Source: a virus (Duplodnaviria > Heunggongvirae > Uroviricota > Caudoviricetes). From it: 16,212 nucleotides of DNA. The position numbers were made by a program. The stretch spans positions 1 to 16,212 of IMG/VR virus record IMGVR_UViG_2529293223_000015; one strand, 5' to 3'. How positions within the stretch are numbered: position 1 is the first letter of the stretch; each line of letters begins with the position of its first letter. This document shows positions 3,639-6,600 of this stretch, piece after piece.

Positions 3639-6600
3639 TGACCACTTCAGTTGTCATGACAGGAAGATGGTTATGCGTAAGTGACGGGAGTTTTTCAATA
3701 GACGTGCGATTCATAGACATGTCCTTTCGAATATTTTGATTTACCCCTTTTGAGAGGGTGACCGGGCGCTCAAAACCGTCGAAAGTCGGCGGGCGTATTT
3801 CCATTGCTGGTATTGTATTAGCCGCACACCCGGTCATAAACCAAGAATTCTGGACACAAAAAAACCACATGGCTATCGGGTGTGGATACCGCTTTCGAGG
3901 TGTTTTGAGCACCGCGGGGAAATGTAAACTGCAAACCTGAAACTGTCAACACCGTCAGGTTCCAATCATCGGGTGGTGAGACGCACAGGGTTGGAACTAC
4001 CGGGAAACCGACCGGCGAGCTTTTCAGCTCCCCCATGCGCCCCACCATAATTCAGATGTGCGCGTGCATACGACAATAAAAAACACGCTCGCGGCGTGTG
4101 TCTGTCGCGGTCTCTATCCGGGGTTCCAATCCCGACGCCAGATTTTGCTGGCGCGTGAGGAATATAGCCCCGGACAATGTGTCTGGTCAAGCACCTACAT
4201 AATTCGTTCTACGTATCTGTCCATCTCCAGCCTGATATCAAGCATCATCAACATGCCATCAATAACCCCTTCCGCTTTCTGCAGGCGCTTGCCAATACAG
4301 GTATCCGAACACCCATGTTTCCGTGCCAGACTCATAAAAGTCATTCCACCTACGTAATAATCCACCAGCAAATCGTGCAAATCCTGATTTTTCTTGTTCA
4401 ACCGGGCCATACAGCCACAAATTATCATTGCATCATCATCAGAACACTGAGGGCGTGATTTCACTTTCGACGGAATTAACCCTTTAAAACCAGCAGCGAT
4501 CGACGCCCAGGATACATCTTCATGAGTGTTTGCAGCCCAAGCCCCCCACCGTTCCATAACCTGCTGAATATCACGCGCCATCGTTATCACCTGTGATTTC
4601 GTAAATCTTCACGCCCAGTCGCCCACCAGGAACGAGCTGACCGCGCACAATATTGATTTCATCAAACTGCTCGTCGTCTATGAGTAGTCCGGCATGCGTC
4701 AGCGCATCCAGTGGTGCTTTCAGGATATTGTCCAGGTCACGACGGCGCTTATCCGGTGGCTCTGCAATAATCTTTATCGCCAGCCTTCCGGACAGGTTTA
4801 ATTTCAGCCGCTGCTGGCGAACAATTAGCGTCACATCACGGCGATAACGCTCACCAACTTTTGATACAAAATATGTGCAGCCACGACGTCGCCAGTAAGT
4901 ATTCACCGTCGGCGGATAAGGTAAAATAAACTCATGGCGCATCAGCGCAGCACCTCCTGCACCATTTTTTCAAACTTTCCAACTTTGGTTTCCAGCTCTG
5001 CCACACAATCAACGAGCTCATCCACCGCTTTTTGTGCGCGATGTTTCGCCTGCATCAGTTCCCTGAGCGCTGGCACCATATCCCGACGAATGGCATCTTT
5101 TGTTACACCTGTTTTTTCCAGTTGTTCCGCCTGTCGCAACATTTCCTGCGCGTGTTTACGCAATTGTTCAGGGGTAAAAGTCATTGTCTGGTTGTTCAAA
5201 AGAAACGCTCCATCTTACTGCTGTCGGTACGTGTATTGCTGTATCTGCGCGGCTGGGGCTGCCGCATTGGGGTGGAAAGAACCTGTGCGCTTTCCTGGTC
5301 CACAGGCAGAAAATGTCCGTTATAAAAACGCCGGTAAATCGTCCCCAGAGAACCGTTACGTTGTTTCGTGATATTAATTTCTGCTATGCCTGTGGCCTGT
5401 GTATCCGGGTTGTACACTTCATCCTAAAGTGCGCAAAATCATTTGATACCGTTTTGAATTTTTTTTGATACCACCCAAAACGGCACAACGAAAAATTATT
5501 TGATACTAATCGGGAGTGCTTTTAGGGTATGGCTGAACCCTGAATAGCTTAGTATTTAGTCGCTTTCTTGCGCGCTTGTTCAGGAACCTGATGTAACGAT
5601 ATTGATTAAATTTGTGTACCACGGCCCGCTCCTTATTCGCTCGTAAATATTCGCCGCGCTTCCCTCCACGATTAATCGCATTCATCGTTATCTCGTGATA
5701 CCACTCACCGTCCAGTTCGTAGAATGTGCTTTCATGGCTGCCAATAAAATCAAAATTTGACGCCTGATACACAACACCTGCACGCCCGCAACGTTCGTCT
5801 GCAAAGGACTGAACCCACTCCACTGACGGATACAGTAACCTGATGGTTTTCAGCGCGTAGCTGATGGCCCGTGATTCAGAGTTGCGGGGCATGTCGTCGT
5901 GTAGCCACATGCGGTTCAGTTCCATATAGCCCCGGTTATCCGTTTCAAGCACAACGCGACGCCCTGAGTTGGGGTTAAGGGCATATCCCCACTGAAGAAC
6001 ACCAACCAGATCACGTCCACTGAATACGCCCAGATGCAACCAGGAGTTATTCACAAAACGGCGGGAATAATGCTTTGTCTGAATGATTGTGCGGGCCAGC
6101 CAGCAGGATATGGTTTCAACGCGCAGCTCCCTTGAACCATAGCCGACAATCCGGCCTTCATACTCAATAACGCAGGGTTTTGTCAGAATGCGTGATTTCT
6201 TCTCTTTTCCCACAATACAGCTCCGTGGGATGCTCCCGGGCACTCGATATGACAATGTAACGTTTACAGCGAGGACATTTGATTTCTATATGCTTAAAAC
6301 CTCCTTTAAACAGCAATTTATTGCAATTTTTACAACGAACAGAGTCCATAATTTCCCCCAGTGTAATAACAGGATATAGCTGCCCGGAGGGCTGGGGGTA
6401 TTTAATCACACTTGATGCAAACCGACGATCGATATGATGCTATCGATCGTCATAAACTATACAAACTGATTATTTAATCGCCTGGTCTGAACGCTCTCAC
6501 CTCGTCCAGTGTGGGCAACAGAGAAAGTTGTTCTTTCATCTCCCGCTGACAGCGATAAATCTCATCGTTGCGCTCAACAATGGCCTGTATCATCGCTGTG

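What the first reader, a model, noticed from the sequence alone, without database searches (positions are those of the whole stretch)
5425..5507. 22-bp-phased TTTGATAC(C/T) direct repeats at the module boundary
Three copies of TTaTTTGATAC(C/T) are seen; the first two are exactly 22 bp apart (cores at 5444 and 5466) and the third is 35 bp further. An A-rich stretch (ACGAAAAAT, 5489..5497) recalls the CGAAAA core of MuA sites. Phasing at 22 bp is the arrangement of Mu R1/R2 end-binding sites. Arm-type integrase sites of a relic attP are an alternative.
Basis: seen in the sequence. Interest (0 to 1): 0.6.

Follow-up and report, generated by a model that had tools for sequence, protein, structure and literature searches.

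The report
Right end of a Mu-like prophage
The three TTTGATAC repeats are the transposase docking sites at the right tip of a Mu-like transposable prophage that jumped into a gene of another, decayed prophage; the arrangement copies phage Mu, but the recognition sequence, the terminal bases (TA instead of CA) and the 4-bp target duplication differ from every described transposable phage.

Summary
TTTGATACY occurs at 5442, 5464 and 5499 on the + strand, spaced 22 and 35 bp; 0.5 copies of the 8-mer are expected in the whole window.

The repeats occupy the last 83 bp of a Mu-like prophage (com, mom, tail and baseplate genes, 5425-16212). The prophage is inserted in the replicative-helicase gene of a decayed lambdoid prophage, and homology switches exactly at 5424|5425.

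The same terminus abuts at least 10 unrelated host flanks in E. coli chromosomes, Yersinia Mu-like phages and viral contigs. Left ends of these relatives carry three inverted copies at Mu-like positions (18/122/164 against Mu's 19/124/166), next to repressor, ner, a DDE transposase and a MuB-like ATPase. The attP alternative and the "CGAAAA" resemblance are not.

It is not a MuA site. The cognate transposase is 23% identical to MuA and 76% to that of the O157 prophage Sp18. All three sites are direct, whereas Mu R3 is inverted. Termini are 5'-TA rather than TG, and the target duplication is 4 bp (7 of 7 insertions, 3 checked against empty sites). The literature I searched reports only 5 or 6 bp, and TA-TA ends only in Leptospira.

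Binding itself is inferred, not shown.

The parts
5425..5441 (+). Terminal 17 bp of the prophage right end (TAAAGTGCGCAAAATCA). Position 5425 is the terminal nucleotide, so the transferred strand ends ...GCACTTTA-3' on the minus strand.
   Evidence: Helicase homology stops at 5424 and element homology starts at 5425. The same TAAAG(C/T)GCGCAAAATCA follows different flanks (preceding base c/a/t/a/c/a/c/c/t/c) in independent contexts. It resembles the Mu, D108, VW-6B and Kp4852-3 termini (TGAAGCGGCGCAC, TGTAGCGCGGCG) except for G to A at position 2.
5442..5450 (+). R1 core TTTGATACC, positions 18-26 from the terminus.
   Evidence: The position is identical in all right and left ends of clade A and the Sp18 type. 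It corresponds positionally to Mu's R1 ACGCGAAAG block at 19-27.
5464..5472 (+). R2 core TTTGATACC, 22 bp after R1 (positions 40-48).
   Evidence: The 22-bp R1-R2 spacing is also seen with lineage-specific cores in VW-6B (TYTGGAC), Kp4852-3 (TTTGCA) and Mu (CGAAA).
5499..5507 (+). R3 core TTTGATACT, 35 bp after R2 (positions 75-83), in direct orientation. It overlaps the mom stop codon (5506-5508).
   Evidence: The third core lies at position 74 or 75 in five lineages whose R2-R3 spacers are unalignable. This copy was not required by the search pattern, so it is independent evidence.
5421..5424 (.). Predicted right-hand copy of the 4-bp target duplication (ATCC). The intact helicase gene reads ...CTTCATCC|CTGTAAAGC.
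   Evidence: Empty-site sequences are. The 4-bp rule comes from 7 of 7 relatives. The left copy lies outside the window, so this is a prediction.
5196..5424 (-). 3' fragment of a lambdoid replicative DNA helicase (DnaB-type) gene, truncated by the insertion.
   Evidence: It is 94-97% identical to phiP27 and E. coli prophage helicase genes up to 5424. The frame is broken by TAG at 5424-5426.
5506..6255 (-). mom (Mom adenine-modification enzyme), the last gene of the element. The likely true start is at 6213, as annotated in relatives.
   Evidence: Pfam PF25680 Mom, E = 2.5e-75. It is 88% identical to Mu/D108 mom and 98.5% to FDAARGOS_943.
6164..6349 (-). com (zinc-ribbon translational activator of mom). 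The mechanical ORF extends to 6409.
   Evidence: Pfam PF10122 Zn_ribbon_Com. A 186-nt com is annotated in FDAARGOS_943.
6474..16212 (-). Right arm of the Mu-like prophage: tail-fibre assembly, tail fibre, Gp48, baseplate J/gp47, GP46, Gp45, Gp44/P, DNA circularisation protein N and part of the tape measure.
   Evidence: Pfam hits. It is colinear at about 98% identity with the FDAARGOS_943 prophage from that prophage's terminus onward.

Best explanation
The three TTTGATACY copies are the R1, R2 and R3 transposase-binding sites of the right end (attR) of a Mu-like transposable prophage. The prophage belongs to the lineage that includes Yersinia phages vB_YpM_5, vB_YpM_6 and Tongde, about 10 E. 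coli prophages and, as a sister lineage, the O157 prophage Sp18. It transposed into the helicase gene of a resident lambdoid prophage, and position 5425 is its last base.

Proposed mechanism, by analogy with Mu (inferred, not shown):
- Monomers of the element's own DDE transposase each recognise one core. This is a 695-aa MuA-like protein, encoded about 33 kb away and outside the window.
- R1 and R2 are 22 bp (two helical turns) apart, so two protomers sit side by side on one DNA face next to the cleavage site. R3 is 35 bp further in and is an accessory site.
- The left end carries L1 at the same 17-bp distance from its terminus, and L2 and L3 about 104 and 146 bp further in.
- Pairing of the two ends builds a transpososome. 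It nicks after the terminal ...TA-3' and joins the 3' ends to target DNA with a 4-bp stagger, helped by the MuB-like ATPase.

Shown here: the element boundary, the site array, its mirror image at left ends, random insertion, the 4-bp duplication and the TA termini.

Inferred: that the transposase binds the core, and which part of the protein does so.
For: (1) Position. The repeats fill the 83 bp between the mom stop codon and a junction where helicase homology ends (5424) and Mu-like homology begins (5425).

(2) The same terminus and site array are joined to at least 10 unrelated flanks: sslE, ydcO, glpT, a site next to glyS, and others.

(3) Left ends of the same elements carry three inverted copies. 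The first is 17 nt from the terminus, exactly as at the right end. They lie next to repressor, ner, a Mu-transpos_C DDE transposase and an AAA ATPase.

(4) Core offsets are 18/40/75 (right) and 18/122/164 (left). Mu's CGAAA blocks lie at about 19/41 (right) and 19/124/166 (left).

(5) The sister Sp18-type lineage, whose transposase is 76% identical, has the same core at 18/40/75 and 18/113/165, although its spacers cannot be aligned with clade A. More distant transposases (41-49% identical) go with different cores at the same 22-bp phasing.

(6) The third core recurs at position 74-75 in five lineages with unrelated spacers.

(7) The elements insert at random and leave a short duplication, verified against empty sites.
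Against: No binding or footprinting data exist for this transposase family, so protein-DNA contact is inferred from comparative anatomy only.

The window contains neither the left end nor the transposase. They are seen only in relatives that are about 98% identical over the right arm.

The putative end-binding region of the transposase (about residues 90-300) matches no Pfam family and no solved structure by sequence. The structure prediction failed with mean pLDDT 33.5, so an Ibeta/Igamma-like fold is unproven.

The conservation profile of R1 and R2 across lineages is partly circular, because they were found with a pattern that required both cores.

TTTGATAC arrays with 11- or 22-bp periods also occur in unrelated viral contigs as iteron-like repeats, so the motif alone is not diagnostic.
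Confidence: 0.9

Rival explanations
1. Arm-type integrase-binding sites of a relic attP. The repeats would be bound by a tyrosine integrase of a former site-specifically integrating phage.
For: Short direct repeats at a prophage module boundary are typical of attP arms. No tool result supports it.
Against: No integrase is present in the window or in complete relatives. The element sits in a different host gene in each genome, flanked by a 4-bp duplication rather than an att core. Inverted copies at the other terminus and an adjacent DDE transposase plus B-type ATPase are hallmarks of transposition.
Confidence: 0.01
2. Iterons of a replication origin, or operator sites for a regulator, that happen to lie at the end of the prophage.
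For: One search shows many unrelated viral contigs with TTTGATAC arrays at 11- or 22-bp periods that look like iterons or operators.
Against: There are exactly three copies here, at fixed distances from the terminus. They are mirrored in inverted orientation at the other terminus with the same 17-bp offset. No Rep-type initiator is encoded, and Mu-type phages replicate by transposition. The sites lie downstream of the last gene (mom), not upstream of any gene on either strand.
Confidence: 0.04
3. The sites are real transposase sites, but this copy is inert. The prophage in the window would be a dead remnant whose left end or transposase is lost, so the repeats no longer function.
For: The window lies in a region full of decay: IS elements, a truncated lysozyme and a split helicase. 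One relative has mismatched flanks (L263) and one has a mutated L1 core (L262). The window's terminus carries one substitution (TAAAGTGCGC against TAAAGCGCGC).
Against: All three cores are intact. The 10.8 kb of right arm is about 98% identical and colinear with a complete prophage, and its ORFs are open. This rival concerns activity, not identity, and it cannot be settled from the window.
Confidence: 0.3
4. Chance clustering of an AT-rich 8-mer.
For: The region is somewhat AT-rich (GC about 0.44-0.46).
Against: 0.53 copies are expected in the window and 4 are seen; no shuffle out of 200 reached 4. The array is conserved base for base in independent genomes and lineages.
Confidence: 0

Closest known systems
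Phage Mu / D108 attR (MuA-binding sites R1, R2, R3; Craigie-Mizuuchi 22-bp consensus ...RYRCGAAAR)
   Same: The sites lie directly after com-mom at the extreme right end. There are three sites per end. R1 and R2 are contiguous at 22-bp spacing, with the conserved block at about 18-27 and 40-49 from the terminus. At the left end, L1 is alone and L2/L3 lie about 105 and 146 bp further in. The terminal 10-12 bp are related (TGAAGCGGCGCA against TAAAGCGCGCA).
   Different: The core is TTTGATACY, not CGAAA(A/G). R3 is direct here and inverted in Mu. The terminus is 5'-TA, not TG. The duplication is 4 bp, not 5. The cognate transposase is only 23% identical to MuA and lacks detectable Igamma (PF09039) and DDE_2 (PF02914) matches. 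The repressor is of the CI/HTH_3 type.
Sp18-type Mu-like prophage of E. coli O157:H7 Sakai and relatives
   Same: The TTTGATACY core is the same, as are the right-end layout (18/40/75), the 17-bp offset at both ends and the 4-bp duplication. com-mom lies next to the right end. The transposase is 76% identical.
   Different: The Sp18 type has a TG left terminus and a TA right terminus (TGTAACCAGG... and TATAGCGCGGCG...). Its left sites lie at 18/113/165. Its spacers and the first 90 aa or so of its transposase (the enhancer-binding part) differ. I found no description of Sp18 ends in PMC2669165 or PMC7430833.
Yersinia phages vB_YpM_5, vB_YpM_6 and vB_YpM_Tongde (genus Muvirus)
   Same: The right end is essentially identical (one substitution in the terminus), the left-end type is the same, and the transposase is 95.8% identical to that of the E. 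coli clade. These are viable, plaque-forming phages, which shows that these ends are functional.
   Different: Their tail-fibre region carries the Mu-type invertible segment with an invertase. The window's element has a different fibre module without one. The paper describing them does not mention ends or the divergent transposase.
D3112/B3-type Pseudomonas transposable phages and the TA-TA prophages of Leptospira
   Same: D3112-type transposases are the nearest well-studied relatives (30-31% identical). They also have three 22-bp sites per end (PMC4378225). Leptospira prophages include a subset with TA at both ends (PMC8705779).
   Different: D3112-type phages have TGT termini and a 5-bp stagger (PMC4378225; PMC5977238 figure legend). 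B3 and the Leptospira prophages make 6-bp duplications (PMC8705779). None is reported with a 4-bp duplication or a TTTGATAC core.

Membership tests
Mu-type transposable-phage end (att end with transposase-binding sites), broad sense | The sites lie at the physical terminus of the element, next to the host junction. | tested here: met
   The junction is at 5424|5425, defined by empty-site helicase genes and by relatives in other contexts.
Mu-type transposable-phage end (att end with transposase-binding sites), broad sense | The same sites occur in inverted orientation at the other end, at the same distance from the terminus. | tested here: met
   Met in relatives only, because the left end is outside the window. 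Three inverted cores are present, and the first is 17 nt from the terminus at both ends.
Mu-type transposable-phage end (att end with transposase-binding sites), broad sense | The element encodes a DDE transposase with the Mu C-terminal domain and a MuB-like ATPase, and inserts at random sites with a short target duplication. | tested here: met
   Pfam Mu-transpos_C and AAA ATPase are annotated next to the left end. Insertions lie in sslE, ydcO, glpT, torZ, hyfF and others, and the duplication is verified.
Mu-type transposable-phage end (att end with transposase-binding sites), broad sense | The transposase physically binds the repeats. | not testable with these tools
   This needs EMSA or footprinting. 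Sequence and structure routes to the binding domain failed.
MuA-specific sites (phage Mu / D108 / SfMu attR) | A match to the MuA 22-bp consensus with the RCGAAA(A/G) block. | tested here: not met
   The core is TTTGATACY. Mu and D108 DNA similarity begins only inside or at the end of mom (window about 5492-5522), not over the end. The single ACGAAAAAT is not conserved in sister lineages.
MuA-specific sites (phage Mu / D108 / SfMu attR) | R3 is inverted relative to R1 and R2. | tested here: not met
   All three cores are direct here. In Mu, R3 reads CTTTCGCG...TGAAACAG, which is inverted.
MuA-specific sites (phage Mu / D108 / SfMu attR) | 5'-TG...CA-3' termini. | tested here: not met
   The right terminus is TA in the window and in all clade A and Sp18-type copies. 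The left terminus is TA in clade A and TG in the Sp18 type.
MuA-specific sites (phage Mu / D108 / SfMu attR) | A 5-bp target-site duplication. | tested here: not met
   The duplication is 4 bp in 7 of 7 clean insertions: AACA, GCAC, CGAC, GTGA, AGCC, AGCA and CGAG. Three were checked against intact genes.
MuA-specific sites (phage Mu / D108 / SfMu attR) | The cognate transposase is MuA, with Ibeta/Igamma end-binding domains. | tested here: not met
   Identity to MuA is 23%. There is no PF09039 or PF02914 match. Only the Ialpha-like N-terminus, an rve-like core and the C-terminal barrel are detectable.
Arm-type sites of a tyrosine-integrase attP | An adjacent integrase, and a fixed attB with a shared core sequence. 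| tested here: not met
   No integrase is present, and the insertion sites vary with a 4-bp duplication.

The most novel reading that the evidence does not exclude
The Sp18 / vB_YpM_5 family of enterobacterial Mu-like phages runs a Mu-style transpososome with three departures from Mu. Its transposase recognises TTTGATACY through a DNA-binding region with no detectable sequence similarity to MuA Ibeta/Igamma. It cleaves after TA instead of the 'universally conserved' CA, at one end (Sp18 type) or at both ends (clade A). It joins the ends to the target with a 4-bp stagger instead of 5 or 6 bp. The family includes plaque-forming phages that grow on Yersinia pestis EV76, and prophages in E. coli. 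It would therefore be a tractable natural system for asking what the terminal CA and the stagger length do in DDE transposition. It would also answer the question in PMC8705779 of whether TA-TA transposable prophages exist outside Leptospira.
Probability: 0.7. Interest if true: 0.6.

Novelty: new variant of a known kind. Interest (0 to 1): 0.5.

Why it matters
For annotation, the result defines the exact right boundary of the prophage (5425). It explains the broken helicase gene as one prophage inserted in another. It also gives a simple signature for finding the ends of this prophage family, which includes Sp18 in about 230 complete E. coli genomes: T(A/G)-N15-TTTGATACY-N13-TTTGATACY, with a third core about 35 bp further in.

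For transposition biology, the interest lies in the side results. The family is a natural Mu-like system with TA termini and a 4-bp target duplication, and its end-recognition core differs from Mu's while keeping Mu's site geometry almost to the base pair. The terminal CA/TG is regarded as conserved and important for transpososome assembly (Lee and Harshey, cited in PMC4378225). TA-TA prophages have so far been reported only in Leptospira, which is hard to work with (PMC8705779). These enterobacterial phages would make the question directly testable.

Tried and rejected
- A 16-nt degenerate pattern (AAATYATTTGATACYG) scanned against genome contigs and viral contigs was too unspecific. A Python filter rescued four genuine left ends.
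- VW-6B's record is trimmed at the left end, so only its right end could be read.
- The domain that reads the core could not be identified. Residues 86-305 of the cognate transposase match no Pfam family and no PDB sequence. The large protein search returned only hits at least 94% identical to the query. AlphaFold on that shallow alignment gave mean pLDDT 33.5, so no fold search was run.
- A scan with the conserved L1 context (AGGTAAATYATTTGATAC) recovered only clade A and Sp18-type left ends, so the duplication length of the other right-end lineages (TGTAGCGCGCGA and others) could not be determined.
- A 5-bp duplication was considered, with the outer T and A being target-derived. It is rejected because the T and A are invariant in all contexts and are absent from the empty sites.
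- I considered that GTATCAAA is a Mu 'GTTTCAYT' half-site in reverse orientation. I could not test this and do not rely on it.
- Literature searches for TTTGATAC, Sp18 ends, vB_YpM ends and 4-bp duplications found no prior description. Only the held open-access library was searched, so absence there is not proof of novelty.
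Full report
**1. The observation**

Exact TTTGATAC occurs on the + strand at 5442, 5464 and 5499, read as TTTGATACC, TTTGATACC and TTTGATACT. The spacings are 22 and 35 bp. A fourth copy at 4860 lies inside rusA. The window holds 4 copies against 0.53 expected, and none of 200 shuffles reached 4.

**2. What surrounds it**

All genes here are on the minus strand.

- To the right of the repeats lie mom (5506-6255; Pfam Mom, E = 2.5e-75) and com (zinc ribbon Com). Beyond them are a tail-fibre assembly gene, a tail fibre, and Mu-type baseplate and tail genes: Gp48, baseplate J, GP46, Gp45, Gp44/P and DNA circularisation protein N.
- To the left lies the 3' fragment of a DnaB-type helicase gene. 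Its reading frame is broken by a stop at 5424-5426. It is followed by a small ORF, rusA and the Q antiterminator.
- Further left are an IS3-family element, an ORF6N gene, four tRNA genes, a P21-type holin and a lysozyme fragment. Together these form a decayed lambdoid prophage.

In Mu-type genomes, mom is the last gene before the right end.

**3. The boundary**

BLAST of 5150-5750 splits cleanly. Positions up to 5424 match replicative-helicase genes of phiP27 and many E. coli prophages at 94-97% identity. Positions from 5425 on match the mom side of an E. coli prophage (FDAARGOS_943, 98.5%) and of Yersinia Muvirus phages vB_YpM_5, vB_YpM_6 and Tongde. Intact helicase genes read GTTGTACACTTCATCC|CTGTAAAGCATC, and the window diverges after ...CATCC.

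From 5425 to the end of the window, the sequence is colinear at about 98% identity with the right arm of the complete FDAARGOS_943 prophage, starting at that prophage's terminus. Mu and SfMu similarity begins only at about 5522, and D108 similarity at about 5492. So com-mom is Mu-like, but the end itself is not Mu's.

**4. The same end in other places, and the other end**

The sequence TAAAG(C/T)GCGCAAAATCA-TTTGATACC-N13-TTTGATACC-N26-TTTGATACT follows unrelated flanks in E. coli chromosomes (in sslE, ydcO, glpT and others), in the Yersinia phages and in viral contigs. The base before the T varies among c, a and t.

In the circularised vB_YpM_5 record and in complete chromosomal prophages, the opposite terminus carries three inverted copies (GTATCAAA). 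That terminus lies beside the repressor, ner, a 695-aa Mu-transpos_C transposase and an AAA ATPase.

Read from outside to inside, the termini are:

- Left end: TAT(G/A)(A/G)AGAGGTAAAT(C/T)A-TTTGATACT...
- Right end: TAAAGCGCGCAAAATCA-TTTGATACC...

Both have exactly 17 nt before the first core.

Core starts, counted from the terminus, compared with the positionally equivalent CGAAA-containing blocks of Mu (read from Mu's own sequence):

| End | This family | Mu |
|---|---|---|
| Right | 18, 40, 75 | about 19, 41 |
| Left | 18, 122, 164 | about 19, 124, 166 |

Mu's R3 is inverted. The geometry is therefore Mu's almost to the base pair, while the recognition core is different.

**5. The cognate transposase**

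The transposase is only 23% identical to MuA (BLASTP E = 5e-14). Pfam finds the Mu C-terminal domain and an Ialpha-like N-terminal winged helix. It does not find the Igamma or DDE_2 families that MuA matches. PDB sequence search finds MuA Ialpha (1tns), retroviral-integrase-like cores and, weakly, the 4fcy C-terminal part.

Among named phages, the nearest transposases are:

| Phage | Identity |
|---|---|
| vB_YpM_5 | 95.8% |
| Pseudomonas VW-6B | 48.6% |
| Klebsiella Kp4852-3 | 41% |
| D3112 / DMS3 group | 30-31% |

The right ends of VW-6B and Kp4852-3 keep related termini (TGTAGCGCGGCG, TGTAGAGCGGCG) and the 22-bp phasing of the first two sites. Their cores differ: TYTGGAC and TTTGCA. Core sequence therefore tracks the transposase lineage, as expected for its binding site.

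**6. A sister lineage: Sp18**

A second set of left ends (TGTAACCAGGTAAATCA-TTTGATACC; cores at 18/113/165) belongs to the Sp18-type Mu-like prophage. It is found in 233 of 5,426 complete E. coli genomes, including O157:H7, always in different genes.

Complete copies have right ends TATAGCGCGGCGATTTT-TTTGATACC-N13-TTTGATACC-N26-TTTGATACT, again next to com-mom. Their transposase is 76% identical to clade A and diverges only in the first 90 residues or so. The spacers between sites cannot be aligned between the two lineages, but the cores and their positions are the same.

A scan for two cores 22 bp apart found further Mu-type right ends, with both TA and TG termini. The third core lies at position 74-75 in five lineages. 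The first two cores were required by that search, so only the third core and the terminus are independent evidence. The same scan also returned many unrelated iteron-like TTTGATAC arrays, so the motif alone is not diagnostic.

**7. Termini and target duplication**

All clade A elements begin 5'-TA at both ends. Sp18-type elements begin TG at the left end and TA at the right.

Seven clean insertions are flanked by a 4-bp direct repeat:

| Host site or source | Repeat |
|---|---|
| sslE | AACA |
| viral contig | GCAC |
| IMG genome | CGAC |
| ydcO | GTGA |
| glpT | AGCC |
| torZ | AGCA |
| hyfF | CGAG |

The intact sslE site reads GGGTAACACGAC, against GGGTAACA|element|AACACGAC in the lysogen. 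Flanks rejoined with one copy of the repeat match intact glpT and hyfF at 100 of 100 bases, ungapped, in thousands of genomes. A 5-bp reading is excluded, because the outer T and A are invariant and absent from the empty sites.

Published values I could find:

- 5 bp for Mu.
- A five-base shift between the two insertion orientations for D3112-type Ab30.
- 6 bp for B3 and the Leptospira prophages.
- TA-TA ends only in Leptospira, with the remark that their existence elsewhere "remains to be investigated" (PMC8705779, PMC5977238).
- 5'-TG(T) described as conserved among Mu-like phages (PMC4378225).

Papers on Sp18 and on the Yersinia phages do not describe ends. For the window, the predicted duplication is ATCC (5421-5424).

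**8. Mechanism**

By analogy with Mu, each core is bound by one transposase protomer. R1 and R2 are two helical turns apart and adjacent to the cleavage site, and they nucleate the right half of the transpososome. R3, and L2/L3 at the other end, are accessory sites. Synapsis with the left end is followed by nicking after ...TA-3' and by strand transfer with a 4-bp stagger.

Shown here: the boundaries, the site arrays, the inverted symmetry, random insertion, the duplication, and the co-variation of core with transposase lineage.

Inferred: binding itself and the domain responsible. I could not identify that domain. Residues 86-305 match nothing by sequence. The only alignment allowed for structure prediction was too shallow, giving mean pLDDT 33.5.

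**9. Rivals**

- attP arm sites are excluded. There is no integrase, the sites of insertion are random, and there is a target duplication.
- An iteron or operator role does not explain the fixed distance to both termini, or the position downstream of the last gene.
- Chance is excluded by the shuffles and by conservation.
- Whether this particular copy is still active cannot be decided from the window.

**10. Verdict**

The finding is a correctly recognised Mu-type right end. As a kind it is known. As a variant it is distinct from Mu in its recognition core, its direct R3, its TA termini, its 4-bp duplication and its divergent transposase. As far as I could search, it is undescribed.

Noticed in passing
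window 5425 (terminus); relatives L001, L004, L261, L262, L383, L384, L133/L253, L250/L255: Termini of this prophage family are 5'-TA rather than TG: at both ends in clade A, and at the right end only in the Sp18 type. The target duplication is 4 bp in 7 of 7 insertions, three of them verified against empty sites. The literature I searched gives 5 or 6 bp, and TA-TA ends only in Leptospira.
   Followed up: yes
window 5196-5424 and 1-5195: One prophage is inserted in another. The Mu-like element split the replicative-helicase gene of a lambdoid prophage. That prophage is itself decayed: an IS3-family element at about 2437-3641 lies between Q and the ORF6N/tRNA region, a lysozyme fragment lies at 362-541, and a second IS-type transposase ORF lies at 1-300.
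   Followed up: partly
window 1437-1747 (minus strand): A cluster of four tRNA genes (Met-CAT, Arg-TCT, Thr-TGT, Gly-TCC) lies in the lambdoid remnant between the Q region and the P21-type holin.
   Followed up: no
L260 (D108, GQ357916.1 about 36650-36670): The 3' end of D108 mom retains TATGATACTAATC, a degenerate copy of the third core plus its flank (TTTGATACTAATC). D108 itself uses Mu-type CGAAA sites about 500 bp further out, beyond an extra gene. This hints that mom was exchanged between the two end types.
   Followed up: partly
window 6340-16212 compared with L261/L262 and L385: The window's element, like FDAARGOS_943, has a tail-fibre and tail module with no nucleotide similarity to other clade A prophages, and it lacks the invertase/G-segment they carry. 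Part of it has high GC (about 0.60 at 10200-15400). The early region plus ends and the late region are exchanged as separate modules.
   Followed up: partly
L263 (NZ_CP066032.1) and L262 (NZ_CP035836.1): One complete clade A prophage has different host genes at its two ends and no duplication, so it is probably rearranged. Another has a mutated L1 core (TTTGATGC).
   Followed up: no
viral contigs L269, L270, L275, L273, L289, L300 and others: Many unrelated viral contigs carry TTTGATAC arrays with 11- or 22-bp periods, often as GTATCA-TTTTGATAC palindromes. They look like iterons or operators of other phages, so the 8-mer is reused as a protein-binding core in unrelated systems.
   Followed up: no
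L383 22513-22600 and L384 18293-18372: Sp18-type prophages carry an annotated 'tRNA-OTHER' feature between the head morphogenesis and virion morphogenesis genes.
   Followed up: no
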